64,000 nucleotides of DNA from Anaerolineales bacterium. GTDB lineage: Bacteria > Chloroflexota > Anaerolineae > Anaerolineales > E44-bin32. Positions 1,310 through 57,900 of this stretch are shown piece by piece. The stretch covers positions 739-64,738 of the forward strand of contig DAOUEE010000198.1 in NCBI GenBank assembly GCA_034430695.1, given 5' to 3'. Position 1 is the stretch's first letter. Every line of letters starts with the position of its first letter. Both the position numbers and the translations under genes were made by a program. A model generated the notes under the pieces. It did not search any database. It was not told where the DNA came from and worked only from the letters and a program-made list of their open reading frames with translations.

Positions 1310-1315
1310 TGTCTG

Positions 1316-1324
1316 TGCTATACT
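1316..1324 (+). promoter_or_regulatory. Extended -10 element (TGcTATACT) upstream of degU
   Basis: TG-c-TATACT lies just after the GT stop codon. In-frame ATGs follow at 1330 and 1354; the latter is preceded by AGGTGG. Confidence 0.55.
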
Positions 1325-1353
1325 CGCCGATGTTAAAAATAGGTGGCTCAGTT

Positions 1354-2046
1354 ATGGAGAATATCCCAGTCATCATCGTCGACGACCATCCTCTGTTTCG
1401 TGAGGGTGTACGGAACGTTCTCGATTTGGAAGATGACATCGAAGTAATCGCTGAAGGCACGAGCGGCGACCAGGCTCTCCAGCTGGTTCGAGAATTGAAG
1501 CCGCGGGTCGCACTCATCGATGTCAATCTACCGAACATGAACGGCATGCAGGTGACGCGCCAGGTATCTGCGGAACGATTGGACACCGCAGTGGTCCTCG
1601 TTACGGCGTACGATGATGTCGAACAGGTGCTGCACGCTTTTCGGGCCGGTGCGGCCGCCTATTGTTCGAAAGACGTGGAGGCGGGTAAATTGGTCGACGT
1701 AATCCGCCATGTAGCCCGCGGTTTCTTCGTAGTCGGCGATCAGGTATATGATTCATCCGGTTTGGATCAATGGCTTTCGCGTGGCGTCGAGACGGTTCGA
1801 CGCCCGCATCTGGATGGAGATGTGGAAGCTTTCACACCGCTTTCACCTCGCGAAATGGAAATCCTGCAATATGTGACGCGCGGGATGAGTAATAAGGAAA
1901 TCGCATCTCGATTGGGGATCAGCCATCAGACGGTAAAAAACCACATGACGTCGATCCTGCATAAATTGGATGTCGAGGACCGCACCCAGGCTGCGGTGTA
2001 TGCGCTTCGACATGGCTGGGTACGTCTCCAGGATACACGGAAGTAA
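1354..2046 (+). CDS. degU: NarL/LuxR-family response regulator, DegU-like
   Basis: Intact receiver (IVDDHPLFREG, LIDVNLPNMNG, YCSKD) plus LuxR HTH (LSPREMEIL...GMSNKEIA...TVKNHMTSILHKL). Adjacent to a DegS-like kinase. Start could be 1330. Confidence 0.85.
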   Translation: MENIPVIIVDDHPLFREGVRNVLDLEDDIEVIAEGTSGDQALQLVRELKPRVALIDVNLPNMNGMQVTRQVSAERLDTAVVLVTAYDDVEQVLHAFRAGAAAYCSKDVEAGKLVDVIRHVARGFFVVGDQVYDSSGLDQWLSRGVETVRRPHLDGDVEAFTPLSPREMEILQYVTRGMSNKEIASRLGISHQTVKNHMTSILHKLDVEDRTQAAVYALRHGWVRLQDTRK

Positions 2047-2058
2047 ACAGGCGCAGCG

Positions 2059-3105
2059 ATGACCGAATCAGAAGTCAAAGAACTTTCACCCCTTGAGGAG
2101 TTTCTCCAAACCTCTCGTGAGGAAGTGGAGCAAGTTCGCAGAGAGTTGAAAGAAATCAGCTTGCTCGTTGAACAGAGTCATGGGGAAGTGGAGAAGCTTG
2201 CCCAACGAAATGCCTCCATCACGGCACATTTACATCAGATGCAATCGCATTTCGAGACCGTACCGCGAGAGGACATTCAATCTACGTACGAAGCTTTTAC
2301 CGACGCACAGCAGCGTCTATTCACGATGCGCGGCCAATTGGAGAAATTACAGAGTGACGAAGCGCATTTGAAGCGATACGGTGAGTATTTGGCCAAGGCT
2401 CTGCAGGTCATCGAAGGTGGTCCCCAAGATTCAGTCATGGATTTAATGGGGGGTGGAACATCGACGATCCAACAGATCATCGAAGCCCAGGAGGATGAGC
2501 GGCGAACGATTTCACGTCAATTGCACGATGGCCCAGCGCAGGCTTTATCGAACTTCATCCTGCAAACGGAAATCGCAGTTCGTCTCTTCAACACGGATCA
2601 TGAAAAAGCCAAGGAGGAGTTGAACAACCTGAAAGCGGCTGCCGCATCGACATTCGCGCGAATTCGAGATTTCATTTTCGATTTACGGCCGATGATGTTG
2701 GACGACCTGGGATTGGTGCCGACGGCGAAGCGCTATACCGAGGCGTACAGCGAAAAGACGGGTGTCGAGGTTTCAACGGTCATTACCGGAACGGAGCGGC
2801 GCTTGGAACCGCACCTCGAAGTCCTTACGTTTCGGGCCTTACAGTCCTTGCTGCGTAACGTGCGCGACTATGCCCAGGCAACACAGGCGAAAGTCATGAT
2901 TGATATCGGTGAGCAAGAACTGAGGGTGAGTGTTGAAGACAATGGCCGTGGGGTCGATATCGAAACGATGTCGGAAGAAGATCAAAAAAAGTATGGTTAC
3001 AACACCTTAGAGGATCGTATCAATCAGGTGGGCGGTTCCCTTGAAGTTTCTAGCACTGCCGGCGAAGGTACACGCGTGGCCTATTCGATTCCTCTGGGGG
3101 CATGA
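2059..3105 (+). CDS. degS: Soluble HisKA_3 sensor histidine kinase, DegS-like
   Basis: N-terminal coiled coil resembling the DegS sensor domain (REDIQSTYE...), H-box ISRQLHDGPAQ, DLRPMMLDDLGL, HATPase DNGRG. No TM segment. Confidence 0.85.
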   Translation: MTESEVKELSPLEEFLQTSREEVEQVRRELKEISLLVEQSHGEVEKLAQRNASITAHLHQMQSHFETVPREDIQSTYEAFTDAQQRLFTMRGQLEKLQSDEAHLKRYGEYLAKALQVIEGGPQDSVMDLMGGGTSTIQQIIEAQEDERRTISRQLHDGPAQALSNFILQTEIAVRLFNTDHEKAKEELNNLKAAAASTFARIRDFIFDLRPMMLDDLGLVPTAKRYTEAYSEKTGVEVSTVITGTERRLEPHLEVLTFRALQSLLRNVRDYAQATQAKVMIDIGEQELRVSVEDNGRGVDIETMSEEDQKKYGYNTLEDRINQVGGSLEVSSTAGEGTRVAYSIPLGA

Positions 3106-3753: not shown

Positions 3754-4911
3754 ATGCGTGGTGGTCGAGTCATAATGCTCCTTGCCATAATCATCCTCCT
3801 CGGTGTGCTTGCTGCATACTTGATGCTTGGGGGAAATGAAGAAGCTCCCCCAACTGAAGGTGAAGGCGTCGTTCAACCCGGATTGTCTGCAGATATGGTA
3901 TACGTCGTCGTAGCCGGGCAAGACATTTCACGCGGTTCGATCATCCCGGAGCAAGATGGTGTCGTCGTCTCCCAAATGCCGAGAGATTTGGTCATCGAGA
4001 CGATGATCAGTGGTGAAGATGAAGACGAACTCAAGTCTCGGGTTGTTGGGCGTAGGGCACGGATGGACATCGCTCGCGGGCTATTTATCACCGAAGGTAT
4101 GCTGACGGACAAGCCGGGTGATCTGCTTGGCATAGGTTCCGATGCCGCAATGGCGATCGAACCAGGATACACTGCGATCTCCATTCCGTGGCACCGGATT
4201 TCCGGCGTTGCTTTTGCACTGCGAGCCGGTGATCAGGTCGATGTTTTGATCAGCTTTTTGATCGTCAGCGTCGATGCGGATTTCCAGACCGAATTACCAA
4301 ACGAAACGACGGCCATCAGTGCTTTGGGCGGTATCCCACAGCAATTCGGTCCACACGTTACGGTACCCATCAGCCCTGGAATAGAGGATCCAACGAGACG
4401 GCAGGAGGGTGAATACTGGCCGTACGGGCGTGTCGAGAGCGAACCGGAGCTGGGTCTGCCCATTCACGTGATTCCCCAGGAAGCGCAACGGCCACGATTG
4501 GTATCCCAGCGCCTGATTGAAAACGCTACGGTGCTTAAATTCGGTAATTTCTCGACCGCTGACATTCTCGGTGAAGAAGTCCAGATGGTGGAAGTCCCTG
4601 AAGGTGAGGAAGCCACTACGGAGAACGTCACGGAAAGCGTGCCAGACATCATTACTCTCATCGTCACGCCACAAGATGCTTTGGCTTTGAACTGGGCGGT
4701 TAAAGCGGGAGCGGATCTCGTTTTGACGCTGCGTTCGCCGGACGATACCACTATCACGGAGACGAGCAGTATCACACTGCAATATCTGCTGGATAATTAC
4801 AACATTACCGTGCCGGCTAAACTACCTTACGCATTGACACCGGCAATTGAGGCGCCGATCATTCCTTTCATCGATTATGAGGTTACAGTTCAAGGGGAAG
4901 GTGCGCAGTAG
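3754..4911 (+). CDS. cpaB: Flp pilus assembly protein CpaB/RcpC (SAF domain)
   Basis: N-terminal TM anchor, SAF-like VVVAGQDISRGSII, RcpC-like GYTAISIP...LRAGDQVDVL, C-terminal ITLIVTPQDA...LVLTLRS. Confidence 0.85.
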   Translation: MRGGRVIMLLAIIILLGVLAAYLMLGGNEEAPPTEGEGVVQPGLSADMVYVVVAGQDISRGSIIPEQDGVVVSQMPRDLVIETMISGEDEDELKSRVVGRRARMDIARGLFITEGMLTDKPGDLLGIGSDAAMAIEPGYTAISIPWHRISGVAFALRAGDQVDVLISFLIVSVDADFQTELPNETTAISALGGIPQQFGPHVTVPISPGIEDPTRRQEGEYWPYGRVESEPELGLPIHVIPQEAQRPRLVSQRLIENATVLKFGNFSTADILGEEVQMVEVPEGEEATTENVTESVPDIITLIVTPQDALALNWAVKAGADLVLTLRSPDDTTITETSSITLQYLLDNYNITVPAKLPYALTPAIEAPIIPFIDYEVTVQGEGAQ

Positions 4912-4957
4912 GGGATCTTAGCAATATATAAGGGTTGGTTGTTACTCGGAGGACCAT

Positions 4958-6178
4958 ATGTCTGAAAACGCGGAAGGATCAATCCGCGTACTTATCGTTG
5001 ATGATATTGCAGAAACACGTGAAAATATCCGAAAATTGTTACAGTTCGAATCGGATATCACTGTAGTTGGTGCTGCGGTAAGTGGGCAGGATGCACTCGA
5101 GTTAGCCCGCGAAAAAGACCCTGATGTCGTCGTGATGGACATCAACATGCCCGACATGGATGGCATCACTGCGACGCAAGAGTTATTAAAAGACGTTCCC
5201 TACGCACAGATCGTCATCTTATCCGTTCAGAGTGAAGCCGATTACATGCGCCGGGCGATGCTTGCTGGCGCAAGAGACTTCATCGCCAAACCTCCCTCTG
5301 GTGACGAGTTGATTTCCACGATTCGTTCACTTGCGGCACGAGCGCAAGAACAGCGGAAATCGTTGGAAAGACCGGCGCCCCATGTCGTGCAACCGGTGCC
5401 CGGAATGGGCTACGCCCTGCCAGAAGGAAAGTTGATCGCTGTGTACAGCGCGAAAGGCGGTGTAGGCTGTACGGTCTTGGCGACGAACATCGCCTTGGGC
5501 TTGCAAACGGAAGAAACGCCAACGGTGCTGGTGGATACTGCGCTGCAGTTCGGCGACGCAGCCGTATCGCTGAACCTGCAGGTCAAGTTCAGCTTTGCGG
5601 ACGTCTCTACGCGAGCCGACGAGGTCGATCCGGAAATCCTCGGGGAGATTCTTTTAAGTCACGAGAGTGGTCTGCGAATTCTTGCGGCGCCGCCGCGGCC
5701 TGAAATGGCGGATGAGGTGAACGCCGAACAAGTACGCAAAGTGCTGCAGCATCTTCGCAGGCAGTTCGCCTACGTTATCGTCGACATGAGTTCTAACATG
5801 GATGACGTTGCGCTTGCCGTAATGGACGCAGCTGATTTATTGGTCGTCGTAACCGTACCGGAAATACCATCAATCAAGGACGCACGACTGTTGTTCGATT
5901 TGTTGACCGTCCTCGAGTTCCCTAAAGACAACGTATTTTTCGTATTGAATAAAATGGACCGTAAATCCGGCATAACACCAGAGGCCGTGGAGGAGAATCT
6001 GAATTACTCGGTGAACGGCGTCATTCCGTTTGATGAACGTGCAGTCTCGACGTCCGTCAATCGCGGCGTCCCACTCATGATATCGGATCGTGGCTCATCA
6101 GTCGCGAAAAGCATCATCGATATACTGGGAGCATTGAAAGAGAAATTGATCGAGATGGAAAAGGTTGTTGAAGAATAA
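4958..6178 (+). CDS. cpaE: CpaE/TadZ: receiver domain plus ParA/MinD-like ATPase fold
   Basis: Intact receiver (VDD, MDINMPDMDG, FIAKP). Degenerate deviant Walker A KGGVGCT, DTALQFGD, YVIVD. Position within the Tad cluster. Confidence 0.9.
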   Translation: MSENAEGSIRVLIVDDIAETRENIRKLLQFESDITVVGAAVSGQDALELAREKDPDVVVMDINMPDMDGITATQELLKDVPYAQIVILSVQSEADYMRRAMLAGARDFIAKPPSGDELISTIRSLAARAQEQRKSLERPAPHVVQPVPGMGYALPEGKLIAVYSAKGGVGCTVLATNIALGLQTEETPTVLVDTALQFGDAAVSLNLQVKFSFADVSTRADEVDPEILGEILLSHESGLRILAAPPRPEMADEVNAEQVRKVLQHLRRQFAYVIVDMSSNMDDVALAVMDAADLLVVVTVPEIPSIKDARLLFDLLTVLEFPKDNVFFVLNKMDRKSGITPEAVEENLNYSVNGVIPFDERAVSTSVNRGVPLMISDRGSSVAKSIIDILGALKEKLIEMEKVVEE

Positions 6179-6238
6179 TCGTACCGCTGATGCAAATGGG
6201 TTGGGTTTGTTGAGTGCGATTTTTAGGAGAGTGCTACT

Positions 6239-7648
6239 GTGTCGCTATTAAAAAGGATTGAGCAAGGGCAAGCGGAAGCACCATCCAGCGCTAGCAGCAA
6301 TCCCCCCGTTGGGGGAGGTACCGGACGGCTGTCGGGGTTGAATGCTCGCCGTGTCGCGCCACCACGCTCAGCGCAAAGAGATACCTATTACGACCTGAAA
6401 ACACGCGTTCAGAACAAGCTCCTGGCTGAACTGGATCCTTCCATGGACGTAAGCCAGACGGCCGAAGTCCGCAGAACGATCGAGGAGCTGTTCGAGAATA
6501 TATTGGCCGAGGAAAAGATCGTACTTTCCCGGCCGGAACGACGGCGGCTCTTCGAGCAGATCGTGGCCGAGATTCTCGGCCTGGGGCCGCTCGAACCGCT
6601 CCTTGCAGACGATACGATTACAGAAATCATGGTCAACGGGCCAAAACAGATCTACATCGAGCGCAAAGGTAAACTGCACCGGGAACCCGCTTCCTTCGAA
6701 AGCAGTGACCATCTCATGCGCATCATCGACCGCATCGTGGCTCCACTGGGCAGGCGCATCGACGAATCCAGTCCCTATGTAGATGCCCGCCTTCCGGATG
6801 GATCGCGTGTGAACGCGGTCATCCCGCCGATATCGCTTGTTGGACCTACGCTTACCATCCGAAAATTCTCACGTGACCCGATTAGCGTCAATCAATTGGT
6901 CGAGTTCGGCACGTTGACGCCCGAGTCGGTTGAATTCCTAAAGGCATGCGTGATTTCGGCTATCAATATCGTTATCTCCGGAGGTACTGGCTCCGGTAAG
7001 ACGACGCTGCTGAACGTACTCTCTCAGTTCATCCCCACTGACGAGCGCATCGTAACGATCGAAAATGCGGCCGAGCTTCAATTACGGCAGGAACACGTTG
7101 TCACGCTGGAGTCGAGGCCGCCCAACATTGAAGGTCGCGGCGAGGTAACCATTCAAAACCTGGTTGTAAACTGCTTGCGTATGAGGCCGGACCGGATCAT
7201 CGTCGGTGAGATCCGTGCGGAAGAATCGTTGGACATGCTTCAGGCGATGAACACCGGTCACGAGGGCTCGATGACGACGGCTCACTCGAACAGCCCGCGC
7301 GATACACTGGCACGTATCGAAACAATGACCCTGATGGCCGGGATGGATTTTCCTGTACGGGCGATCCGCGAACAGATCGCCTCCGCGATGGAACTCGTAG
7401 TGCATCTGGAAAGACTCCGCGACGGTACGCGTAAAGTAACCCACATCTCAGAGATTCAGGGGATGGAAGGTGACGTCATCACGATGACAGACCTTTTCGT
7501 CTTCGAGCAAACGGGATTCGAGGATGGCCGCGTGATTGGAAGGTTGCGGCCGACTGGACTCCGACCTAAATTTATTGATAAGATTGAGACATCCGGGATT
7601 CATCTGCCGGCGACGATCTTTGGTGTTGGTGGAAAGCGCGGGTACTAA
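6239..7648 (+). CDS. cpaF: Tad pilus motor ATPase CpaF/TadA
   Basis: Walker A GGTGSGKT, IENAAEL, RMRPDRIIVGE, His boxes MNTGHEGSMTTAHSN. Confidence 0.95.
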   Translation: MSLLKRIEQGQAEAPSSASSNPPVGGGTGRLSGLNARRVAPPRSAQRDTYYDLKTRVQNKLLAELDPSMDVSQTAEVRRTIEELFENILAEEKIVLSRPERRRLFEQIVAEILGLGPLEPLLADDTITEIMVNGPKQIYIERKGKLHREPASFESSDHLMRIIDRIVAPLGRRIDESSPYVDARLPDGSRVNAVIPPISLVGPTLTIRKFSRDPISVNQLVEFGTLTPESVEFLKACVISAINIVISGGTGSGKTTLLNVLSQFIPTDERIVTIENAAELQLRQEHVVTLESRPPNIEGRGEVTIQNLVVNCLRMRPDRIIVGEIRAEESLDMLQAMNTGHEGSMTTAHSNSPRDTLARIETMTLMAGMDFPVRAIREQIASAMELVVHLERLRDGTRKVTHISEIQGMEGDVITMTDLFVFEQTGFEDGRVIGRLRPTGLRPKFIDKIETSGIHLPATIFGVGGKRGY

Positions 7649-7651
7649 CCA

Positions 7652-8635
7652 ATGAATTCAAATCTGATCCTGATGATAGGATTGGGGCTTGGATTGCTCC
7701 TGCTGCTCATCGGAATCGCCTCATCTGTATTTGGAAGAGGCTCGATTGTTGAAGAGCGGCTTGGGCAATATTCCGAGACGGGTCAATTAAGTTACGGAGG
7801 CGAGGTCAGCGCTGAAAAGGAGCGCGACAGATCGACGCCCGTCTCGGACTTCTTCAACCGTATGGGGGAAGGAACGGACCTATTTGATGGGATCTCGAAG
7901 AATCTCGCACGCGCAGACATAAAACTCCGACCGGCGGAATACATTGCGGGCATCTTTATCTGCGGCGTCGTCGTCGCCGCGCTCGGCTTTTTTGCCACCG
8001 GCCAGAGTATATTTTTAGCTATCGTGTTCTTCTTCGTCGGACTGCTCATCCCGCGTTTCTATGTGAAACTCGCGCAAGGCCGGCGATTGAAATCGTTCGA
8101 CAACCAGCTATCCGACATGATCAATCTGATGGTCAATGGCCTGCGGGCTGGTTTTTCCACGCTGCAGGCGATGGAATCAGTCAGTCGCGAATTGCCCTCT
8201 CCGATCTCCGATGAATTTCGACGCGTCGTCCAGGAGGTGCAGTTGGGCCTCACGATCGAAGATGCTCTCGAGCATCTCCTTCGCCGTATCAGCAGTGACG
8301 ACCTCGACCTGGTGATTACAGCGATCAACGTTCAACGAGAGGTCGGTGGTAACCTGGCTGAAATTCTAGACACGATTTCACACACGATTCGCGAGCGTGT
8401 GCGTATTAAAGGCCAGATTCAGGCATTAACTGCACAGGGCCAGGCAACGGGCTGGGTCATCGCGGCATTGCCCTTTGCCCTGGCGGGGATATTGTTTTTA
8501 GTGAATCGTGAATACATCATGGTGCTCTTCGCGCCGGAGACCAGGGGATGTGGTATTCCGATGGTCATCTTGGCGTTTTTGATGATCGTCTTCGGCATGA
8601 TCGCCATCCAGAAAATTGTTAATATTGACATTTAG
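7652..8635 (+). CDS. tadB: Tad platform membrane protein TadB (T2SSF family)
   Basis: QLSDMINLMVNGLRAGFS, QREVGGNLAEILD...IRER motifs; TM segments. Confidence 0.9.
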   Translation: MNSNLILMIGLGLGLLLLLIGIASSVFGRGSIVEERLGQYSETGQLSYGGEVSAEKERDRSTPVSDFFNRMGEGTDLFDGISKNLARADIKLRPAEYIAGIFICGVVVAALGFFATGQSIFLAIVFFFVGLLIPRFYVKLAQGRRLKSFDNQLSDMINLMVNGLRAGFSTLQAMESVSRELPSPISDEFRRVVQEVQLGLTIEDALEHLLRRISSDDLDLVITAINVQREVGGNLAEILDTISHTIRERVRIKGQIQALTAQGQATGWVIAALPFALAGILFLVNREYIMVLFAPETRGCGIPMVILAFLMIVFGMIAIQKIVNIDI

Positions 8636-8747
8636 CGATCGATAATTGAATACGAGTTTGACGGTATGATGAAAGTTATTCTCGATGTTGAAAGTAGGCG
8701 TAATGCCCACGGGATGTTGTCCGCACGAGCGATCGAGGTGATTTGAC

Positions 8748-9689
8748 ATGAATCCGTTGGTGATATTGGTCATTGTCGTTGTCGTCGTCGTCTTTGCGAT
8801 CGCCCTGGTCATCGCAGGCATCAAGGCACCGCAAGCCAGCGATCCCATTTCGGACCGCCTGGCGGAATATTCTGCAAGCGACATACCGCTAACGCTTGAA
8901 GACCTCGAACTATCCCAGGGTTTCTTCGAACGAATTATCTTGCCTATGTTCAATAAAATAGGCAATATTGCCTCGCGCTTCACACCGCAGGCAACGCTCG
9001 AGAACGCACGAAACCGAATCGAGATGGCGGGCAACCCTATGCAATTGGATCCCGCATTCTTCTTGGTCCTGCGGGTGATTGTGGGCGTCTTGTTCGGTGG
9101 AGCGATCTTCCTCGTTTACACTTCGTCGGGCAGGAACTGGCTGCAAGGCCTGGGATTGTCTGTGCTTTTCACCGCTCTCGGGTTTTACTTTCCAGACTTG
9201 TGGTTGACGAGCAAGATTAAATCGAGGCAAAAGGCGGTATTTCGCGCCTTACCCGATGCGCTCGATTTGCTCAACGTCTGTGTCGAGGCGGGGCTTGGTT
9301 TTGATGCCGCTATGGGGAAAGTCCACGAGAAGTGGGAGGACGATCTCTCTATGGAGTTCGGTCGTGTGCTTCAGGAGATTCGACTGGGAAAATTGCGCCG
9401 GGAAGCGCTGCGCGACTTGTCCGACCGAGTCGATGTGCCCGAACTGACTTCCTTCATCGCCGCCGTCATCCAATCTGAACAGTTGGGCGTGAGCATGGCG
9501 AAGGTTCTTCGTATTCAATCCGACCAGATGCGAACCCGCCGGCGTCAACTCGCGGAGGAGGAGGCCGGTCGTGCACCGATCAAGATGGTGTTCCCCATCG
9601 GCTGTCTCATCTTTCCATCGATTTTGATTTTACTGCTCGGGCCTGCTGCTCTGACCCTGATGACCTCTGCCTTGGCTGGCATCTTCTAA
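8748..9689 (+). CDS. tadC: Tad platform membrane protein TadC
   Basis: LPDALDLLNVCVEAGLGFD, QSEQLGVSMAKVLRIQSDQMR, KMVFP motifs. Confidence 0.9.
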   Translation: MNPLVILVIVVVVVVFAIALVIAGIKAPQASDPISDRLAEYSASDIPLTLEDLELSQGFFERIILPMFNKIGNIASRFTPQATLENARNRIEMAGNPMQLDPAFFLVLRVIVGVLFGGAIFLVYTSSGRNWLQGLGLSVLFTALGFYFPDLWLTSKIKSRQKAVFRALPDALDLLNVCVEAGLGFDAAMGKVHEKWEDDLSMEFGRVLQEIRLGKLRREALRDLSDRVDVPELTSFIAAVIQSEQLGVSMAKVLRIQSDQMRTRRRQLAEEEAGRAPIKMVFPIGCLIFPSILILLLGPAALTLMTSALAGIF

Positions 9690-51003: not shown

Positions 51004-51049
51004 GCATCAGCAATAAACAACTGTCTCATCCCGGTATAATTTGGCCTAA

Positions 51050-51080
51050 AAATAACTAGGGCGCAGAAGTCTCTGCGCCC
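51050..51080 (-). terminator. Intrinsic (probably bidirectional) terminator
   Basis: GGGCGCAGA-agtc-TCTGCGCCC followed on the minus strand by TAGTTATTTTT. Confidence 0.75.
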
Positions 51081-51140
51081 CGATATGTTAAATTGTTAGT
51101 CTTGAAATTTCCTACACGTTATCTTTCTACCGATATGGAT

Positions 51141-51344
51141 TTAATATTCATCCTCTCTTTCGTAGTCGTAATCATCGTCGTATTCGAGCTCCTCGTCATC
51201 GAAGGCCCAATCCAATTCCAACGGTGAAACGCCAACGACCATCAAATATGCTCCGCATTGTGGACAACTGACTTGCTGTCCTTCACTGGGGTCTCGTCCA
51301 ACCGTGATCTTTGCATCACATTCTGGACAAAATGCGTGTGTCAT
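51141..51344 (-). CDS. LysW-like zinc-ribbon protein with a non-canonical acidic tail (67 aa)
   Basis: CPECDAKI...GQQVSCPQCGAYLMVVGVSPLELD matches the LysW core; tail WAFDDEELEYDDDYDYEREDEY instead of EDWGE. SD AGGAGG. Confidence 0.85.
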   Translation of the reverse strand: MTHAFCPECDAKITVGRDPSEGQQVSCPQCGAYLMVVGVSPLELDWAFDDEELEYDDDYDYEREDEY

Positions 51345-51378
51345 GGAGAACCTCCTGACAAAAATGCGTTTCGCCAGC

Positions 51379-51421
51379 ATCATACGCATAAGGTGTAGAA
51401 ATTGTGTCTAACTCGTGTGAA
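51379..51421 (-). promoter_or_regulatory. Triple 11-bp-period direct repeat replacing -35, plus -10 TATGAT
   Basis: Minus strand TTCACAC-gagt-TAGACAC-aatt-TCTACAC, 8 nt, TATGAT, upstream of the LysW-like gene. Confidence 0.6.
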
Positions 51422-51461: not shown

Positions 51462-52148
51462 TTAATGGGTGCCGATATCGAAGAGATAGCCCATGCCGGG
51501 AATGGTATGTATGAATTCGGGCGACGAGGGATCGCGCTCGATTTTCGCACGTACTCGGCTGACGAGGCCGCGAACCAATTCGCGGTTCCCTTTTTCGCTG
51601 TACCCCCACACCCGCTCGACGAGGACGTCGGTCGGGATTGCTAATCCTCGATTGGTCATGAGGACGTAGAGTAGTTGGAATTCCAACTGTGTGAGCCGCT
51701 GTGCTTCCTTTCCATGCACCCGAACGCTGCGTGTAGAAGGATTGAGGGCGATCGTTTCCAGGTCCAACATCGGTGTGGCCAGCAAGGGTGCCACACGTGC
51801 TCTGCGAAGCAGTGCGTGGGTATAGGCGGTCAACAAGCGAGGATGGATCGGCATGGGCAAAGCGAGGTCGGCGCCGGCCGTGAGTAGGTCCACGGTTTGT
51901 GTGTTGGATAGCGTTTCTGCGATTACGATAATGGGGACCTCACTCACGCCGCGAATGGATTTTAAATCGCGGATCGTGCGTTCGATACCCGTGCTGACGA
52001 TCACCAACAGCGCCGCCGGCGCTTCCATCCAGTTGCCAATCACTTCTTTGGCTTCTGTCTTCTGTACGATTTTCGTCCCCACCTGGCGCAGGATGAAGGC
52101 GATCATGTCTCGTTCCTGTGCGTCTTGACTGATAACAATCGTTTCCAT
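51462..52148 (-). CDS. OmpR-family regulator with an atypical (non-phosphorylatable-looking) receiver
   Basis: wHTH LTQLEFQLLYVLM...LVERVWG...VSRVRAKIE...IHTIPGMGY. Receiver reads VISQD, LLVIVS and LALPMP, lacking the acidic pair, phospho-Asp and Lys. Confidence 0.88.
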   Translation of the reverse strand: METIVISQDAQERDMIAFILRQVGTKIVQKTEAKEVIGNWMEAPAALLVIVSTGIERTIRDLKSIRGVSEVPIIVIAETLSNTQTVDLLTAGADLALPMPIHPRLLTAYTHALLRRARVAPLLATPMLDLETIALNPSTRSVRVHGKEAQRLTQLEFQLLYVLMTNRGLAIPTDVLVERVWGYSEKGNRELVRGLVSRVRAKIERDPSSPEFIHTIPGMGYLFDIGTH

Positions 52149-52186: not shown

Positions 52187-52837
52187 CTAAATCAAACTCA
52201 GCGCGTTGACCAGATATCGAACGCCCAGGTAGGTCATATAGCCGCCGGTGATCATGATCAAAAACCGGTATGCCCGCTCGCTGAACCAGCGTTGGCCGCT
52301 GCTCGTTGCCGTGGCGAGTGCTGTATCCCAGGCGAAATCTGCACTGATGTGGCCCACGTAAAACGCAGCGACTGCTGCCGCACTGATCGCTTTCGCTTGG
52401 GTGAGGTACCCCGCTGCAACGGTGACCCACCAAATGTACCAGAATGGATTGGCCAGCGTCGTCATTATTCCCAGGGCGACGAGAGCCCGGGCCGATCCCG
52501 TCGAATGGGTTCGACCGGGCTGCGGAAACTGCACATCTTTCTTCCACACGGTGAGAATGTAACTGCTTCCGATCCAGAACAAGATCAAACTTCCGCCGAT
52601 CGAAATCGCCACAAGCGCCATCGTGGTTTGCATCACAACGGTAAGCCCGAAGCAGATCAGAATAAGAATTGCGAGTTCCAAAGCGGAGTGTCCGAAGGCG
52701 ATGAGCGGCCCTGAGCGCCAACCTTTGCGGGGCGCCTCACTCAGAATCGCTGCCGTTACCGGGCCGGGGGAGATCACCGCGGCGAAGGATACGAGCAGGG
52801 AGAATTGAAAAATGGAAAAGACGTCGTCTGCGGCCAT
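52187..52837 (-). CDS. LysE-family exporter
   Basis: AVISPGP, GPLIAFGH, TTLANP; hydrophobic. Confidence 0.85.
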   Translation of the reverse strand: MAADDVFSIFQFSLLVSFAAVISPGPVTAAILSEAPRKGWRSGPLIAFGHSALELAILILICFGLTVVMQTTMALVAISIGGSLILFWIGSSYILTVWKKDVQFPQPGRTHSTGSARALVALGIMTTLANPFWYIWWVTVAAGYLTQAKAISAAAVAAFYVGHISADFAWDTALATATSSGQRWFSERAYRFLIMITGGYMTYLGVRYLVNALSLI

Positions 52838-52899: not shown

Positions 52900-53844
52900 C
52901 TACGAATTTTCCTTGATAAAGCGCGTGAGGTCCGGAAAAATCAGCTTATCGAGACTGTCATTTCCCAACGCGGCGTGATTGACGACTTCAAAATTGCGGT
53001 GAACTTCACGCAGCGCACGCACTTGCCAGGCGGGAGGCGATTGCGAGAAGACGCCGAGACAAACCGTTCTTTTACCGGGGATGAGCAGCAATGTCGAACC
53101 ATCATCGATTTGCGTGGCGAACATACGCGATGTCTTTCCTTCTTCTTCGGCGGAACCGAAAGTTCCCAACAATCCCATCGCGTCTTCGGCAGGTTCGGGC
53201 ATGTCCCCTTCGACAAATATTCGTTCTCGGGAATTGATCTTGTACAGTCCCACTGAGTGGCAGGTGGCCTCGTTGAGCTGCATCAGGTAGCTGGTCTTCC
53301 CCTCTTCCAGCACAACCCGCCAACGGTCGCTTTCCGGATGCATTTTACTCATGCGCAGCGCCACTTCACGCTGCTGCATGTAATGACGCCGCACCGCCCG
53401 GTATTGGGATGCGTTAATTCTGCCCTGTTGATAATCTTGTTCAAGCCGGTTGATTTTTTGTTCGAGTGCGGCGAGGCGCTGCTTTAGATCCTGCGGTAAA
53501 TCATCATCGGCGGGTGCGTCTTCTTCGATCGCAGGTTCGCTGATCGGATCCGTTGTGACGACGTCTGGAGGTAAGGGGTGGATTGTGGAAGGTTCTTCGT
53601 CTATGAAGGGCGCCGCTTCTTCGCCTTCCATCTTGGAGACGCGTTGTTCCCATTCACGAAGGAGTTCCCGGGCGGCTCTCAGTTGTCCTTCGCTGATCGA
53701 CCCGTCGCAGAATGCGATCGCCGCGGAGAGGAATTTCTCTCGCGCACGCTCGAGCCAATCCAACGCGTCTTGGTATTCTGCGTTTTCTCCCCCCGAAGCG
53801 GCTCGTTTCGCTTTCTTTTCGGTCTTCTGCGCCTTTTCCGTCAT
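52900..53844 (-). CDS. Hypothetical protein: two SHOCT-like helical motifs, acidic Pro linker, alpha/beta C-terminal domain
   Basis: AFCDGSISEGQL and DYQQGRINASQY repeats; C-terminal beta-beta-alpha-beta-beta-beta-alpha pattern. Start uncertain (53844 or 53883). Confidence 0.7.
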   Translation of the reverse strand: MTEKAQKTEKKAKRAASGGENAEYQDALDWLERAREKFLSAAIAFCDGSISEGQLRAARELLREWEQRVSKMEGEEAAPFIDEEPSTIHPLPPDVVTTDPISEPAIEEDAPADDDLPQDLKQRLAALEQKINRLEQDYQQGRINASQYRAVRRHYMQQREVALRMSKMHPESDRWRVVLEEGKTSYLMQLNEATCHSVGLYKINSRERIFVEGDMPEPAEDAMGLLGTFGSAEEEGKTSRMFATQIDDGSTLLLIPGKRTVCLGVFSQSPPAWQVRALREVHRNFEVVNHAALGNDSLDKLIFPDLTRFIKENS

Positions 53845-54064
53845 GGCGCTTATAATGGTATCCGAAGCGCCTCCCATACGCAACCATCATAGCATTTGGG
53901 TGGTGAAATGTGTCAGAGGACGGTTGTACCATGACCGAAAGTAGCTCTATGACGGAAGGTCAGGGATGCGGTATACTCAACGCTGGCATTTTACACGGTT
54001 GTCGATTTTTTTTGTCTATCCAGCAGAAATTGCGAGACGAAAAACGGATCGGAGGGAGTGGTTG

Positions 54065-55233: not shown

Positions 55234-56019
55234 CTACTTCGACTTCACGAGTGTGCCTGGTTTTGCCCCCAAGAGCGCATCCTCGATCGACCCGGGTGTC
55301 TCAGCCGAAAATATTCGCACTTCAATTTGTGGGCTCAGACTGGCGATGGCCAACGCTGCTTCCACTTTCCCGCGCATGCCGCCGGTTACGTCGGTTGCCT
55401 GCGTAATTTCCATGCCGATCTTGCTCAGGTCTTTTGCTGTTACCGAAGACAAGATCTTCTTCGACTTCGGGAAATCGGCATATACGCCGGATTCGATACC
55501 TGCGATGAGAACGCGCGATGGGTGTAGATGCTGCGCCAGATAAGAAAAGACGGTCTCCGTGGAAACGATCGCCGCGCCTCGTTCGCGATCGAAGGCGACG
55601 TCGCCATAAATGATTGGCAGTAAGCCCGCTTCGACTGCCTGTGCGATGGGCTGGTGGGCCATTTCCTTTATCTCCCCGGCAGCGCTGATAACGCTTGCAG
55701 AAGGAGGAAAAGCCAGTGCAGGCAGCTTTTCGTTCAGGAAAGCATCGACTACGAAACGGTTCAGACGTTGAGCCGCCGCCCATACTTCGGCAAAACCCAG
55801 CCATTCAGCGGGTGTCGAAGCGCCGCGATTCGTGGCGTATCGCGCTGCTGCTACGTGTCCGAACGATCCTGACCCGTGGCCTATAAGAAGACGCAGGTTG
55901 GGAATTTTCTGCCGCGCTCGGGCGATTTCCATCGCCGTGCGTTCCAGGATGAGGTACCTGACCGTCTGCGCTTGGTCTTTTTCCGTGATCAACGAGCCAC
56001 CCAATTTGAGGAAGATCAT
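55234..56019 (-). CDS. ipk: Isopentenyl phosphate kinase (amino-acid-kinase fold)
   Basis: LKLGGSLIT, GHGSGSFGH with the IPK signature His, YGDV, DVTGGMRGK. Downstream of mvk. Confidence 0.9.
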   Translation of the reverse strand: MIFLKLGGSLITEKDQAQTVRYLILERTAMEIARARQKIPNLRLLIGHGSGSFGHVAAARYATNRGASTPAEWLGFAEVWAAAQRLNRFVVDAFLNEKLPALAFPPSASVISAAGEIKEMAHQPIAQAVEAGLLPIIYGDVAFDRERGAAIVSTETVFSYLAQHLHPSRVLIAGIESGVYADFPKSKKILSSVTAKDLSKIGMEITQATDVTGGMRGKVEAALAIASLSPQIEVRIFSAETPGSIEDALLGAKPGTLVKSK

Positions 56020-56021
56020 GG

Positions 56022-56954
56022 TTATACCTTCGTCATCCGTGTCCAAACCGCTCCGGCGGCGTGTAAGGCTTCTGCGACGGCCTCGCCGGCGGCAGGTCGG
56101 ATGAGTACAACGATGATACCACCAACACCGGCTCCAGATAACTTCGCGCCACAGGCGCCGCGATCTCGTGCCGTAGAAAGCAGTTTTTCGATCGTCTTGG
56201 AGCTGACGCTCAAAGCTTCTAATTTTTCCTGATTCTGGTCCATCAGCCTGCCCAATGCAGAAACGTCCCCATTCGCGATTGCTGACCGGGCGCTTTGGGT
56301 GATTTGACCGATCTCTTGAAAGATTGCGTCAAACGACGTCCGATCCCGTTTCCAGGCCTGTCGTACGCTGGCGACGATCTCACCGGTATTCGAGGGCAGA
56401 CCTGTATCGGCAAGGATGAAGCTGAATTCTGCTCCGATCGAAAGTCGTTCCGGCTGGCGCCCGCGGATGAAATATATCGGCTGGTCATAAACGATGACCG
56501 TGTTGTCGATTCCCGAAGGCGTGCCGTGGTGGATTTTTTCCACTTCGTAAACCAACTCCGATTGGCGTGACAGCTCGAGTGGGTGATCGAAATGCCGGCA
56601 GAGCGCGCGCAAGACCGCCGTCGAGACTGCGGCGCCCGAGCCGAGCCCGGAAGCGACGGGAATCTGCGCTGAGATGCGTATTTCGATCGCCGGAAATGAA
56701 CGAACGTGGAGTTCTTCCAGCGCCAACTGGGTGATTTTACGCAGCGGGTTACGCCTGTCGGCTTCGTGTAGCCACATATCGAAATCGATATCCGGGGCGA
56801 TGAGGTGGACACGGCCTTGTGGTTGATCCGGCAGCTGGCGTATCTGCGCGTTGGCGCGCATTTGACGCAAAGGGAATGCAATCGCCGGTTGTCCGTAGAC
56901 GACCGCATGTTCTCCAAAAAGAATGAATTTACCTGAAGCGCTTGCCCGCGTCAT
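56022..56954 (-). CDS. mvk: Mevalonate kinase (GHMP)
   Basis: GKFILFGEHAVVYGQPAIA, PVASGLGSGAA, HGTPSGIDN, GAKLSGAGVGG. Confidence 0.93.
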   Translation of the reverse strand: MTRASASGKFILFGEHAVVYGQPAIAFPLRQMRANAQIRQLPDQPQGRVHLIAPDIDFDMWLHEADRRNPLRKITQLALEELHVRSFPAIEIRISAQIPVASGLGSGAAVSTAVLRALCRHFDHPLELSRQSELVYEVEKIHHGTPSGIDNTVIVYDQPIYFIRGRQPERLSIGAEFSFILADTGLPSNTGEIVASVRQAWKRDRTSFDAIFQEIGQITQSARSAIANGDVSALGRLMDQNQEKLEALSVSSKTIEKLLSTARDRGACGAKLSGAGVGGIIVVLIRPAAGEAVAEALHAAGAVWTRMTKV

Positions 56955-57823
56955 GATCCCAGATAGAGAATTCCTGCGGATGAAATTCCCCAGAGGACGA
57001 TTGTCGCCAGGAGGGGCCAATCGGAAAAAACGAGTTCTTCCGGTGCACCGCCGGCGTCTTCGATGTTGACCAGATAGAGATAGCGGAACACTCCGTAGAT
57101 GACGAAGGGGATAGTCAACATCATGAGGTGGTTGGTGGGGAGATTTTCGGCCGAGAACGTATAGAGCGAATAGGCGATGATCGTAGTGCTTGAAACGATG
57201 ATGATCAATTGGTCGAGAAAGGTTACGGTGTAGCGGTCAAAAACCCGCCGATGGGAGTTCGCGCCCTCGGCCAGCATGACCAGTTCCGAGCGGCGTTTGC
57301 CCAGTCCGATGAAAAGAGCCAGCAGGCTGGTGCAGACGTAAAGCCACGGGGAGAAACGTTCGGTAGTGATCAAAGCCACACCGGCACCGACTCGCAGCAC
57401 GAAACCCGAGGCGAGCACGAGTACATCGATGATGGGTACGTGTTTTAGCCAAAAAGAATAGAAGAAATTCATGATCAAATAGATCGAGATGACGATCCCG
57501 AAAGATATGTCGAGCGCGAAGCCCCCACCGAGCGCCACGACGAGGAGAATGGCGGCGGTAATTCGGCCAGCAGTCAACGAGAGCTGACCCGAGGCGAGCG
57601 GTCGATAGCGTTTCGTTGGATGAAGGCGATCCTGCTCCAGATCCGCGAGATCGTTGATGAAATATACTGCGCCGGCGCCAACACTGAGCAGGAAAAAGCC
57701 GGCGATGGTCGTCAGGAGCGGTTCTAGGTCGAAAATCTGCTTGTCAAAAATGAGTGCGGCGAAGATGAAACCGTTTTTCGGCCATTGTCTTGGGCGCATT
57801 GTTTTCAGGATGGATTTAATCAT
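56951..57823 (-). CDS. ubiA: UbiA-family polyprenyl-phosphate phosphoribosyltransferase (DPPR synthase-like)
   Basis: MRPRQWPKN, YFINDLADLEQDRLHPTKRYRP, YSFWLKH, GKRRSE. ATGA overlap with mvk; extended -10 TGCTATCAT 7 nt before the ATG. Confidence 0.88.
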   Translation of the reverse strand: MIKSILKTMRPRQWPKNGFIFAALIFDKQIFDLEPLLTTIAGFFLLSVGAGAVYFINDLADLEQDRLHPTKRYRPLASGQLSLTAGRITAAILLVVALGGGFALDISFGIVISIYLIMNFFYSFWLKHVPIIDVLVLASGFVLRVGAGVALITTERFSPWLYVCTSLLALFIGLGKRRSELVMLAEGANSHRRVFDRYTVTFLDQLIIIVSSTTIIAYSLYTFSAENLPTNHLMMLTIPFVIYGVFRYLYLVNIEDAGGAPEELVFSDWPLLATIVLWGISSAGILYLGS

Positions 57824-57900
57824 GGCTGCGATGATAGCAGGAACCAAATGCACAAGCAAGTAATTGCGAAGATGAATGATAACTTGTGTACAATCTGGAT

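What the first reader, a model, noticed from the sequence alone, without database searches (positions are those of the whole stretch)
51141..51344. Orphan LysW-like carrier protein ending in EDEY rather than EDWGE
Seen: a LysW-type double CxxC zinc ribbon, followed by a 22-residue Asp/Glu/Tyr tail that ends in Tyr; strong SD, own terminator, and no lysX/lysZ/argX genes in the window. Known: LysW/AmCP carriers load substrate on the gamma-carboxyl of a C-terminal Glu within EDWGE, via RimK-like ATP-grasp ligases. Inference: this is not a canonical lysine/arginine carrier. It may be a new carrier class, a DNA-mimic or anti-regulator acidic protein, or a tail modified after translation. Speculatively, the E-D-E-Y end resembles alpha-tubulin -EEY, where Tyr removal exposes a Glu for ATP-grasp ligases. 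A LysE exporter lies two genes upstream on the same strand.
Basis: partly seen in the sequence, partly recalled or inferred. Interest (0 to 1): 0.75.

Follow-up and report, generated by a model that had tools for sequence, protein, structure and literature searches.

The report
Acidic LysW-like partner of pseudo-regulator
A 67-residue zinc-ribbon protein that folds like the lysine-biosynthesis carrier LysW but ends in a long acidic tail is not an orphan: in Chloroflexota it is nearly always encoded directly after a response regulator that has lost its phosphorylation site, so it has probably been re-used as that regulator's partner, not as a metabolic carrier.

Summary
A 67-aa gene lies on the minus strand (51344..51141). 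It has a strong Shine-Dalgarno site, its own terminator, a LysW-fold Cys4 zinc ribbon and a 22-residue Asp/Glu/Tyr tail ending in Tyr. It is under purifying selection. The 64-kb window holds no lysX/Z/Y/J/K and no ATP-grasp gene.

It is not a canonical LysW. It scores below both curated LysW cut-offs and has no EDWGE end.

It is not an orphan either. It belongs to a large, undescribed family found almost only in Chloroflexota, with an invariant PLELDWA[FY] motif and a hypervariable, mostly acidic/aromatic tail. The exact EDEY end is not conserved, although a terminal Tyr recurs.

The gene just upstream (51462..52148) is an OmpR-type regulator whose receiver fold is intact but lacks the phospho-acceptor Asp, the acidic pair, the Thr and the Lys. 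This pairing is reciprocal: 32 of 54 loci found through the small protein, and 23 of 26 found through the regulator at ≥43% identity. The regulator's net charge compensates the tail's charge (rho −0.55).

About a third of relatives add lysine 2,3-aminomutase (AblA) and a D-Ala-D-Ala-ligase-like ATP-grasp enzyme. The window clade has a LysE exporter instead.

Best reading: a protein partner or signal input of an aspartate-less regulator that controls lysine-handling genes. The mechanism is inferred, not shown.

The parts
51141..51344 (-). CDS of the 67-aa LysW-fold protein ('W'), stop codon included
   Evidence: ORF, translation and SD. PF21344 E=6.5e-13. pN/pS 0.06-0.16. The 67-aa start is supported by P0002 and by conservation that begins at the SD and ATG.
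51210..51344 (-). Residues 1-45: Cys4 zinc-ribbon globular domain ending in the invariant P41-L-E-L-D45
   Evidence: AF2 pLDDT 85-90 and Foldseek to LysW chains with TM up to 0.93. Invariant C6, P7, C9, C27, C30, L34, P41, E43, L44, D45 in alignments A1 and A2.
51144..51209 (-). Residues 46-67: WAF motif plus Asp/Glu/Tyr tail (WAFDDEELEYDDDYDYEREDEY), predicted disordered
   Evidence: W46 and A47 are >=90% conserved. Composition: 13 D/E and 6 aromatic of 22. pLDDT 53-56. The tail is under purifying selection.
51351..51356 (-). Shine-Dalgarno AGGAGG, 6 nt upstream of the ATG
   Evidence: Sequence read directly. GTCAGGAGGTT is conserved in 4 relatives.
51377..51411 (-). Conserved upstream block TTAGACACAATTTC...GCGTATGATGC: a candidate promoter or regulator site containing a TATGAT -10-like hexamer
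   Evidence: Conserved in the window, L018, L019 and L020 while flanking intergenic DNA varies. It occurs exactly once in the window. The simple sigma-70 scan did not call it, so its function is inferred.
51048..51081 (-). Intrinsic terminator (10-bp G+C-rich stem, loop of 4, T run) 60 nt after the stop codon
51462..52148 (-). 228-aa OmpR-type regulator with an aspartate-less pseudo-receiver; the conserved partner gene directly upstream
   Evidence: Pfam finds only Trans_reg_C. Full-length homology to MtrA 2gwr, E=1.9e-21, where the DD/D/T/K positions are S,Q / I(V) / A / M. The AF2 model shows an intact (beta-alpha)5 fold plus wHTH, pLDDT 86.6.
52187..52837 (-). LysE-family exporter, 38 bp upstream of the regulator on the same strand; probably the same transcription unit
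   Evidence: PF01810 E=3e-29. It is adjacent to the regulator-W pair in two separate clades.
52900..53883 (-). 327-aa protein of unknown function, first gene of the same-strand run; conserved next to W in the window clade and in L022
   Evidence: No Pfam or NCBIfam hit. Cluster c13 in the context map. A 329-aa counterpart is in L075.

Best explanation
The gene encodes a LysW-fold zinc-ribbon protein ('W') that no longer serves as an amino-group carrier for lysine or arginine synthesis. It is the second component of a two-gene module found almost only in Chloroflexota. The first component is an OmpR-type transcription factor whose receiver domain is folded but cannot be phosphorylated. W follows it directly.

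Proposed mechanism (inferred): W binds the regulator. The invariant ribbon edge and PLELDWA[FY] motif provide specific docking, and the polyanionic, aromatic-studded tail provides an electrostatic contact with the regulator. W thereby supplies the on/off input that phosphorylation supplies in ordinary response regulators, much as an anti-sigma factor or connector protein would.

The module controls lysine-handling genes. Here that is the co-oriented LysE exporter. In many relatives it is lysine 2,3-aminomutase (AblA) plus a D-Ala-D-Ala-ligase-like ATP-grasp enzyme.

Shown: the fold, the motif, the degenerate receiver, the reciprocal synteny and the charge compensation. Inferred: physical binding, its direction (activation or inhibition) and the signal (ionic strength, lysine or beta-lysine status, or Zn/redox state of the Cys4 site).
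For: (1) LysW fold, but both curated LysW models are failed and there is no EDWGE end.

(2) The family was retrieved with PLELDWA[FY] in 58 genome loci, 57 of them from Chloroflexota MAGs. A profile search finds 659 cluster representatives at E<=1e-10.

(3) A regulator lies directly upstream on the same strand in 32 of the 54 loci with enough upstream DNA. In 28 of 31 aligned regulators the phospho-acceptor Asp, the acidic pair and the Lys are all replaced. A tool alignment to MtrA confirms this for the window. The receiver fold is intact.

(4) Reciprocal test starting from the regulator. Four of four sampled homologues (47-65% identity) carry W or a W-derived acidic ORF downstream. In 80 metagenome loci, 23 of 26 regulators at >=43% identity and 16 of 27 at 35-42% are followed by W or another zinc ribbon with an acidic tail.

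(5) Charge compensation. Across 75 pairs the regulator's net charge rises as the W tail becomes more acidic (Spearman -0.41, permutation p=2e-4). After collapsing to 33 clusters at 70% identity, rho is -0.55 with p=1e-3.

(6) In L079 the slot after the regulator holds only an acidic/Trp tail ORF with no ribbon. In L127/L145 and L152 it holds a different-looking zinc ribbon with an acidic tail.

(7) All other neighbours vary, so the regulator-W pair is the constant unit.

(8) Reviews state that how pseudo-receivers are switched is unknown (PMC12632262), so a protein input is not excluded by what is known.
Against: - No binding was tested.
- Synteny is equally expected if W is merely the regulator's main target gene.
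- Some W proteins lie next to AblA and the ATP-grasp with no regulator nearby (14 genome loci).
- Some regulator-linked W proteins have near-neutral or basic tails (L046, L054, L124), so an acidic 'DNA-mimic' tail cannot be the universal mechanism.
- A sister regulator clade (MYALL...) usually lacks W but can still sit next to AblA and the ATP-grasp.
- The charge correlation is modest and only crudely corrected for phylogeny.
- The RR-W intergenic gap (117 bp) contains a conserved promoter-like block, so the two genes need not be made in fixed proportion.
Confidence: 0.42

Rival explanations
1. W is a new kind of carrier or acceptor protein. A D-Ala-D-Ala-ligase-like ATP-grasp enzyme ligates beta-lysine, made by AblA, onto a carboxylate of W (tail side chains, the conserved E43/D45, or the C-terminus), in the way LysX loads LysW. 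The regulator only controls the operon. The window's genome would keep the enzymes elsewhere, or would have lost them.
For: - 21 of 61 genome loci have AblA and/or the ATP-grasp immediately next to W, mostly directly downstream on the same strand.
- 21 RR-centred loci (L075-L161) carry the ATP-grasp and 17 carry AblA.
- AblA scores above the TIGR03820 equivalog cut-off (550 and 536 bits against 525).
- The ligase keeps the catalytic residues R255, D257, E270 and N272. Its omega-loop is altered and L282 becomes Asp in the second-substrate pocket (the residue roles are from my memory of the E. coli DdlB literature).
- The W globular domain is 43% identical to a genuine LysW, and LysW proteins are loaded by ATP-grasp enzymes (PDB 5k2m and 3vpb titles).
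Against: - No acceptor residue is conserved at the C-terminus, and tails range from -45 to 0 net charge.
- No release or processing enzymes (LysZ/Y/J/K equivalents) accompany the pair.
- The ATP-grasp is of the Ddl type, which is not known to act on proteins.
- AblA and the ligase also occur with the regulator but without W (L116, L130, L139, L160). W occurs without them in most loci, including this 64-kb window.
Confidence: 0.25
2. W is a stand-alone acidic, disordered-tail protein: a buffer or chaperone for cations, polyamines, lysine or basic proteins, or a metal store. The adjacent regulator simply controls its expression, and W does not feed back on the regulator.
For: - The tail is 60% Asp/Glu with a median net charge of -12 and is evolutionarily plastic. 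This pattern is typical of composition-driven disordered regions.
- W has its own SD, a conserved upstream block and its own terminator.
- Neighbouring LysE, AA_permease and AblA genes all deal with a basic amino acid.
Against: - It does not explain why the partner is always an aspartate-less regulator of one family.
- It does not explain why the regulator's charge co-varies with the tail.
- It does not explain why the ribbon and the PLELDWA[FY] motif are invariant while tails can be neutral or basic.
Confidence: 0.15
3. W is a rubredoxin-like Cys4 redox protein that reduces the radical-SAM cluster of AblA.
For: - Four Cys in two CxxC knuckles.
- Frequent adjacency to a radical-SAM enzyme.
Against: - The fold and 43% identity point to zinc-binding LysW, not rubredoxin.
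- The rubredoxin-like models score far below their cut-offs.
- Most W genes, including this one, have no radical-SAM neighbour.
- An acidic tail is not needed for electron transfer.
Confidence: 0.04
4. W is an ordinary LysW/ArgW carrier working with LysX encoded elsewhere. Alternatively, its -EDEY end undergoes a tubulin-like cycle of Tyr removal followed by ligation.
For: - LysW fold.
- JGI annotates several members as 'lysine biosynthesis protein LysW'.
- A terminal Tyr is over-represented (16 of 60 tails).
Against: - It scores below both curated LysW cut-offs (33.3 against 53.2, and 35.8 against 75).
- The defining EDWGE motif and terminal Glu are absent in all 60 tails.
- No LysX/Z/Y/J/K is in the window or in any of the 61 genome loci with W.
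- The C-terminal residue is not conserved.
- No TTL-type ligase or carboxypeptidase is linked.
Confidence: 0.03

Closest known systems
LysW / ArgW amino-group carrier proteins (TIGR01206, NF041070; PDB 3wwl, 5eio, 5k2m, 3vpb)
   Same: The same Cys4 zinc-ribbon fold (TM 0.93, 43% identity over 46 residues). Both have an acidic character and a flexible C-terminal extension after a PL.L strand. Relatives sit next to an ATP-grasp ligase.
   Different: There is no EDWGE motif and no terminal Glu. The tail is 14-64 residues long and hypervariable. It scores below both curated cut-offs. It is never found with LysX/Z/Y/J/K. The linked ATP-grasp is Ddl-like. It is paired with a transcription factor.
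Regulator plus small zinc-binding antagonist pairs, such as ECF sigma / ZAS anti-sigma factors, and 'connector' proteins that act on response regulators (PmrD, anti-adaptors of RssB). This comparison is from general knowledge.
   Same: The gene order (regulator first, small Cys-rich protein second), the reciprocal conservation of the pair, and a regulator that has no other evident input.
   Different: There is no sequence or fold relationship to ZAS domains or to PmrD. The target is a pseudo-receiver OmpR-type regulator. The interaction is untested here.
Aspartate-less / pseudo-receiver atypical response regulators (ChxR, HP1043, GlnR, JadR1, RitR; reviews PMC4395418 and PMC12632262)
   Same: The partner gene has an intact receiver fold without the phospho-acceptor Asp, plus an OmpR-type winged helix.
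   Different: None of the described examples has a dedicated LysW-fold acidic protein encoded next to it. This family also replaces the acidic pair, the Thr and the Lys (mostly Lys to Arg; Met here).
Acidic DNA-mimic or acidic-tail docking proteins (for example Ocr, CarS, or the SSB C-terminal DDDIPF tip). This comparison is from general knowledge.
   Same: A very acidic segment with interspersed aromatic residues and often an aromatic C-terminal residue. A DNA-binding protein is a plausible target.
   Different: The tail is predicted to be disordered rather than a rigid DNA-shaped surface. Some family members have neutral or basic tails.
RimK-ribosomal protein S6 and tubulin tyrosine ligase systems (ATP-grasp enzymes acting on acidic protein C-termini). 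This comparison is from general knowledge.
   Same: An acidic C-terminal tail, with an ATP-grasp enzyme encoded nearby in relatives.
   Different: The ligase is Ddl-like, not RimK- or TTL-like. The C-terminus is not conserved. No ligase is present in this window.

Membership tests
LysW/ArgW amino-group carrier protein (AmCP) | Cys4 zinc-ribbon globular domain of the LysW type | tested here: met
   PF21344 at 48.5 bits against a cut-off of 27. Foldseek to 5eio_C gives TM 0.93 and rmsd 0.7 A.
LysW/ArgW amino-group carrier protein (AmCP) | Full-length score above the curated family cut-offs (TIGR01206 equivalog, NF041070) | tested here: not met
   33.3 bits against 53.2, and 35.8 bits against 75.
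LysW/ArgW amino-group carrier protein (AmCP) | Conserved C-terminal EDWGE-type motif whose terminal Glu gamma-carboxyl carries the substrate | tested here: not met
   The window protein ends ...EREDEY. No [DE]W[GA]E-stop occurs in any frame. Among 60 related tails the last residue is Y, D, F, A, G, L, W, E, R, V, P, N or C.
LysW/ArgW amino-group carrier protein (AmCP) | Genomic association with LysX/ArgX (RimK-type ATP-grasp), LysZ, LysY, LysJ and LysK | tested here: not met
   None is in the 64-kb window. None is among the recurrent neighbour clusters of the 61 genome loci with W. The rest of the genome could not be scanned.
LysW/ArgW amino-group carrier protein (AmCP) | Covalent loading with aminoadipate or glutamate by an ATP-grasp ligase | not testable with these tools
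   Needs biochemistry or mass spectrometry.
Chloroflexota 'PLELDWA[FY]' LysW-fold family (defined here) | LysW-type ribbon ending in PLELDWA[FY], followed by a variable tail | tested here: met
   Alignments A1 and A2. 63 W genes in 61 loci. 659 cluster representatives at E<=1e-10.
Chloroflexota 'PLELDWA[FY]' LysW-fold family (defined here) | Encoded directly downstream of an aspartate-less OmpR-type regulator | tested here: met
   In the window the regulator is at 51462..52148 and W at 51141..51344 on the same strand.
Aspartate-less receiver (ALR) / pseudo-receiver regulators (the partner gene) | Receiver fold present but the phospho-acceptor Asp (and other active-site residues) missing | tested here: met
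   AF2 (beta-alpha)5 model with pLDDT about 90 and TM 0.92 to the MicA receiver. The Asp is replaced by Ile/Val, DD by S,Q, T by A and K by M.
Anti-regulator / connector proteins (functional class) | Direct binding to the regulator that changes its activity | not testable with these tools
   Only indirect support: reciprocal synteny and charge compensation.
DNA-mimic proteins | A rigid surface with carboxylates spaced like DNA phosphates | tested here: inconclusive
   The tail is very acidic but is modelled with pLDDT 53-56, with only a short helix at residues 50-53. Relatives with neutral or basic tails exist.
Tubulin-like C-terminal tyrosination cycle | Conserved -EEY end together with a TTL-type ligase and a Tyr carboxypeptidase | tested here: not met
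   The end is not conserved. No such enzymes are in the window or among recurrent neighbours. A terminal Tyr is only enriched (16 of 60).

The most novel reading that the evidence does not exclude
A carrier-protein fold has been turned into a signalling device. W and the aspartate-less regulator would form an electrostatic switch that replaces phosphorylation. W's effective charge would be set either by cytoplasmic ionic strength or by reversible beta-lysylation of its carboxylates through the AblA and Ddl-like ligase pair. The cell would thereby read out lysine or osmotic status and tune LysE export and the synthesis of a beta-lysine-derived solute. This would be the first defined input mechanism for a widespread class of pseudo-receiver regulators, and the first protein-modifying Ddl-type ATP-grasp enzyme.
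Probability: 0.12. Interest if true: 0.85.

Novelty: new variant of a known kind. Interest (0 to 1): 0.62.

Why it matters
LysW-type proteins are known only as covalent amino-group carriers in lysine/arginine synthesis and in a few secondary-metabolite pathways. Here the same fold, at 43% identity to Thermus LysW, has lost the carrier motif and gained a polyanionic tail. It has become the fixed neighbour of a transcription factor that cannot be phosphorylated.

Three consequences follow.

- Public annotations of these genes as 'lysine biosynthesis protein LysW' are wrong and would inflate predictions of the aminoadipate pathway in Chloroflexota.
- How pseudo-receiver response regulators are switched is an acknowledged open question (PMC12632262). 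A two-gene module with hundreds of natural variants, including ribbon-less and basic-tail forms, is a directly testable candidate answer.
- The recurrent trio of W, lysine 2,3-aminomutase and a Ddl-like ligase points to unexplored beta-lysine chemistry in a phylum that is abundant in sludge and sediments.

Tried and rejected
- Canonical LysW: rejected on the curated cut-offs, the missing EDWGE and the context.
- Sequencing error or frameshift hiding another end: rejected. Identical tails occur on independent contigs, the tail is under purifying selection and no alternative frame fits. One ENA variant (P0003) does carry a frameshifted tail and looks like an assembly error.
- AA_kinase gene at 55234..56046 as LysZ: rejected. 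It is isopentenyl phosphate kinase.
- Weak tblastn hit of an ATP-grasp-containing ORF at window 30047-30460: it is a SAM methyltransferase.
- Rfam scan of the window at gathering thresholds (lysine riboswitch or any other family): nothing found.
- Further copies of the conserved upstream block TTAGACACAATTTC near LysE or elsewhere: none beyond chance.
- RR-W fusion proteins as a Rosetta-stone test: none in any fetched locus.
- Literature: no paper in the searchable library links LysW-like proteins with pseudo-receivers, or with AblA plus an ATP-grasp.
- Other recurrent neighbours (FtsZ, ParB, a MacB-type ABC transporter, HlyIII, an M24 peptidase, MoeA) are clade-specific housekeeping genes and not part of the system.
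Full report
1. THE OBSERVATION

The ORF is real, and it lies on the minus strand. The ATG is at 51344 and the TAA stop at 51143..51141. It encodes 67 aa: MTHAFCPECDAKITVGRDPSEGQQVSCPQCGAYLMVVGVSPLELDWAFDDEELEYDDDYDYEREDEY. AGGAGG sits 6 nt before the ATG. A terminator with a 10-bp stem follows on the same strand at 51081..51058.

Pfam assigns residues 6-47 to Zn_ribbon_LysW (E=6.5e-13, above the gathering score). The best solved relatives are T. thermophilus and T. kodakarensis LysW.

An AF2 model built on 20 homologues is confident for residues 1-45 (pLDDT 85-90) and low for the tail (53-56). Foldseek puts LysW chains first: 5eio_C with TM 0.93, rmsd 0.7 A and 43% identity, then 3wwl, 3wwn_B, 5k2m and 3vpb_E.

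Against three relatives at 88-96% protein identity, pN/pS is 0.06-0.16. The tail is also constrained, with pN 0.06-0.12 against pS 0.42-0.56.

The same protein is found on five JGI contigs and in a GenBank MAG, Anaerolineales bacterium W31_54. No frame of the window encodes an EDWGE-type end.

2. NOT A CANONICAL CARRIER

- The protein scores 33.3 bits against TIGR01206 (cut-off 53.2) and 35.8 against NF041070 (cut-off 75).
- Pfam sweeps of 48 of the window's 57 ORFs called at >=90 aa found no ATP-grasp, RimK or LysX and no LysZ/Y/J/K.
- The one AA_kinase-fold gene (55234..56046) is isopentenyl phosphate kinase, next to mevalonate kinase and a UbiA prenyltransferase.

3. A FAMILY, NOT AN ORPHAN

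A word-indexed search found 26 relatives. All share ...PLELDWA[FY][DE][DE] followed by an acidic/aromatic tail of variable length.

Scanning one genome per species for PLELDWA[FY] gave 58 loci. Of these, 57 come from Chloroflexota MAGs (Anaerolineales, Ardenticatenaceae, Promineifilaceae and 'Chloroflexia'). One comes from a MAG labelled Acidobacteriota, but its locus is syntenic with Ardenticatenaceae loci, so the contig is probably mis-binned.

A profile of the ribbon plus motif, without the tail, finds 3186 cluster representatives at E<=1e-3 and 659 at E<=1e-10 among 1.84 billion.

The 60 distinct tails in the genome loci have these properties:
- Length after PLELD is 14-64 residues (median 23.5).
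- Net charge is -45 to 0 (median -12).
- Composition is 60% Asp/Glu and 21% Phe/Trp/Tyr.
- The last residue is Y in 16, D in 15, F in 5, and then A, G, L, W, E, R, V, P, N or C.

So EDEY itself is conserved only in the closest clade. A terminal Tyr is nevertheless far commoner than the tail composition predicts (16 of 60 against 6.6%; binomial 1e-6, not corrected for phylogeny). Some members have short, nearly neutral tails. Multi-repeat members mostly have basic tails.

4. THE CONSERVED PARTNER

Directly upstream on the same strand (51462..52148) is a 228-aa protein. Pfam sees only its OmpR-type winged helix. It aligns over its full length to MtrA (2gwr, E=1.9e-21). At the receiver active-site positions DD / D / T / K it carries S,Q / Ile(Val) / Ala / Met. 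AF2 gives a complete (beta-alpha)5 receiver plus wHTH (pLDDT 86.6). The receiver part matches the MicA receiver at TM 0.92. It is therefore an aspartate-less pseudo-receiver regulator.

Starting from W:
- In my context map of 61 loci, a regulator lies directly upstream in 32 of the 54 with enough sequence.
- In 28 of 31 aligned regulators the Asp, the acidic pair and the Lys are all replaced. The Lys is mostly Arg.

Starting from the regulator:
- Its homologues form a tight family of about 228 aa, with 715 clusters at E<=1e-10.
- All four that I looked up (47-65% identity) have W, or a derivative, immediately downstream.
- In 80 metagenome loci retrieved with a regulator alignment, 23 of 26 regulators at >=43% identity are followed by W or a divergent W. 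At 35-42% identity, 16 of 27 are followed by W or another zinc ribbon with an acidic tail.

Other neighbours are clade-specific housekeeping genes.

5. LYSINE-RELATED COMPANIONS

In 21 of the 61 genome loci, W sits immediately next to one or both of two genes, in most cases directly upstream of them:
- a KamA-family radical-SAM enzyme that passes the AblA lysine 2,3-aminomutase equivalog cut-off (550 and 536 bits against 525);
- a D-Ala-D-Ala-ligase paralogue (PRK01372 156-184 bits, below the 243 cut-off; best PDB match is E. coli DdlB).

Seven loci have the full order regulator, W, then the enzymes. Among the regulator-centred loci L075-L161, the ligase occurs in 21 and AblA in 17, sometimes without W.

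The ligase keeps R255, D257, E270, N272 and S281. It has a ~33-residue insert in place of the omega-loop, and Asp at the L282 position (the residue roles are from my memory of the DdlB literature).

The window contains neither enzyme. Instead, the window clade, and independently the L011/L053/L064/L065 clade, has a LysE exporter beside the regulator.

6. EVIDENCE BEARING ON MECHANISM

Three observations favour a physical regulator-W relationship over mere co-regulation.

- Charge compensation. Across 75 natural pairs, the more acidic the W tail, the more positive the regulator (Spearman -0.41, permutation p=2e-4). After collapsing to 33 clusters at 70% identity, rho is -0.55 with p=1e-3. A shared compositional bias would give the opposite sign.
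- Retention of an acidic/aromatic ORF without the ribbon in the same slot (L079: MSDLEWFLLFGGPFDDDEEDWDDD...).
- Different-looking zinc ribbons with acidic tails in that slot (L127/L145 and L152).

Several observations count against a universal 'acidic mimic' mechanism.
- Neutral- and basic-tail W proteins also follow regulators (L046, L054, L124).
- W occurs next to the enzymes with no regulator nearby in 14 loci.
- No binding could be tested.

7. INTERPRETATION

I rank the readings as follows.
- W as the protein partner or input of the aspartate-less regulator that controls lysine-handling genes: 0.42.
- A new carrier or acceptor for the Ddl-like ligase with beta-lysine: 0.25.
- An acidic buffer or chaperone that is merely regulated by the neighbour: 0.15.
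- A rubredoxin-like reductant for AblA: 0.04.
- Canonical LysW, or a tubulin-like Tyr cycle: 0.03.

The first two readings are not mutually exclusive. The most novel combination is charge-tuning of W by beta-lysylation or by ionic strength as the regulator's signal. I give that 0.12.

8. COMPARISON AND NOVELTY

- By fold, the protein belongs to the LysW domain superfamily (PF21344).
- By every other defining feature of LysW/AmCP that I could test, it is not a member: the motif, the curated score and the gene context all fail.
- Functionally, the closest analogies are regulator/antagonist pairs such as ECF sigma with a zinc-binding anti-sigma factor, and connector proteins of response regulators. 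These are analogies only.
- I found no paper describing the family or either association. A 2025 review states that the mechanisms switching bacterial pseudo-receivers 'remain a mystery' (PMC12632262).
- I file it as a new variant of a known kind: the LysW fold with a new tail, a new context and probably a new role. Interest is 0.62.

Noticed in passing
L079 5861..6019 (metagenome contig Ga0645783_00164): Directly after an aspartate-less regulator (47% identical to the window's) lies a 52-aa ORF, MSDLEWFLLFGGPFDDDEEDWDDDEDWDDDDEDW... It is an acidic/Trp tail with an LEW-like start but no zinc ribbon, as if only the tail half of W had been kept.
   Followed up: partly
L081 4491..6910: Three W paralogues surround one regulator: one is divergent upstream and two are downstream. 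A GreA/GreB-family transcript-cleavage factor lies between the two downstream copies.
   Followed up: no
L127, L145 and L152 (downstream of distant aspartate-less regulators): Small ORFs with a different-looking CxxC...CxxC ribbon (WECxECGH...C..CG) followed by an acidic tail occupy the W slot. This suggests either convergence or extreme divergence.
   Followed up: no
Proteins P0027-P0084; L124 2623..; L024 and L037: Many relatives carry two or three tandem LysW-like ribbons, mostly with basic Lys/Arg-rich tails. One 1052-aa protein (P0034) shows 15 matched stretches. L024 and L037 have two separate W genes in tandem.
   Followed up: partly
window 52900..53883 (-): A 327-aa protein with no Pfam or NCBIfam match heads the same-strand run (unknown protein, LysE, regulator, W). 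In L022 its homologue sits directly next to W, with no LysE or regulator between them.
   Followed up: partly
window 51377..51411 (-): A conserved block, TTAGACACAATTTC...GCGTATGATGC, lies upstream of W in four relatives. TTAGACAC and TTCTACAC start 11 bp apart, like OmpR/PhoB-type direct repeats, but the second half-site is not conserved in L019 or L020.
   Followed up: partly
window 55234..57859 (-): Isopentenyl phosphate kinase, mevalonate kinase and a UbiA-family prenyltransferase lie in a row. This marks an alternative mevalonate pathway segment in an Anaerolineales genome.
   Followed up: partly
window 3754..9689 (+): A Tad/Flp-type pilus cluster: RcpC/CpaB-like, a receiver-ParA-like ATPase, a T2SSE ATPase and two T2SSF proteins. 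A NarL-type response regulator and a HisKA_3 kinase precede it at 1309..3105.
   Followed up: no
L039 11769..12821 and the other Ddl-like ligases: The D-Ala-D-Ala-ligase paralogue next to AblA keeps its catalytic residues but has Asp in place of DdlB L282 and a ~33-residue insert replacing the omega-loop. This is compatible with a cationic second substrate such as beta-lysine.
   Followed up: partly
L063 (DATHSI010000310.1): This MAG is labelled Candidatus Sulfomarinibacteraceae (Acidobacteriota), yet the locus is syntenic with Ardenticatenaceae loci L064, L065 and L071. The contig is probably mis-binned.
   Followed up: partly
P0001 (80 aa) and P0003 (75 aa) compared with window 51141..51344: Gene callers extend the ORF to an upstream ATG (the 80-aa form). 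That extension is not conserved in relatives. One ENA contig has a frameshifted tail (…EYDAMITTTKERMIIKSKSVEK), probably an assembly error. Several members are annotated 'lysine biosynthesis protein LysW' by JGI, which is likely a misannotation.
   Followed up: partly
L009 3004..5558 and 6200..8107: In one Anaerolineae MAG, AblA and the Ddl-like ligase are transcribed divergently from W, and an amino-acid permease follows W. This is another lysine or amino-acid transport link.
   Followed up: no
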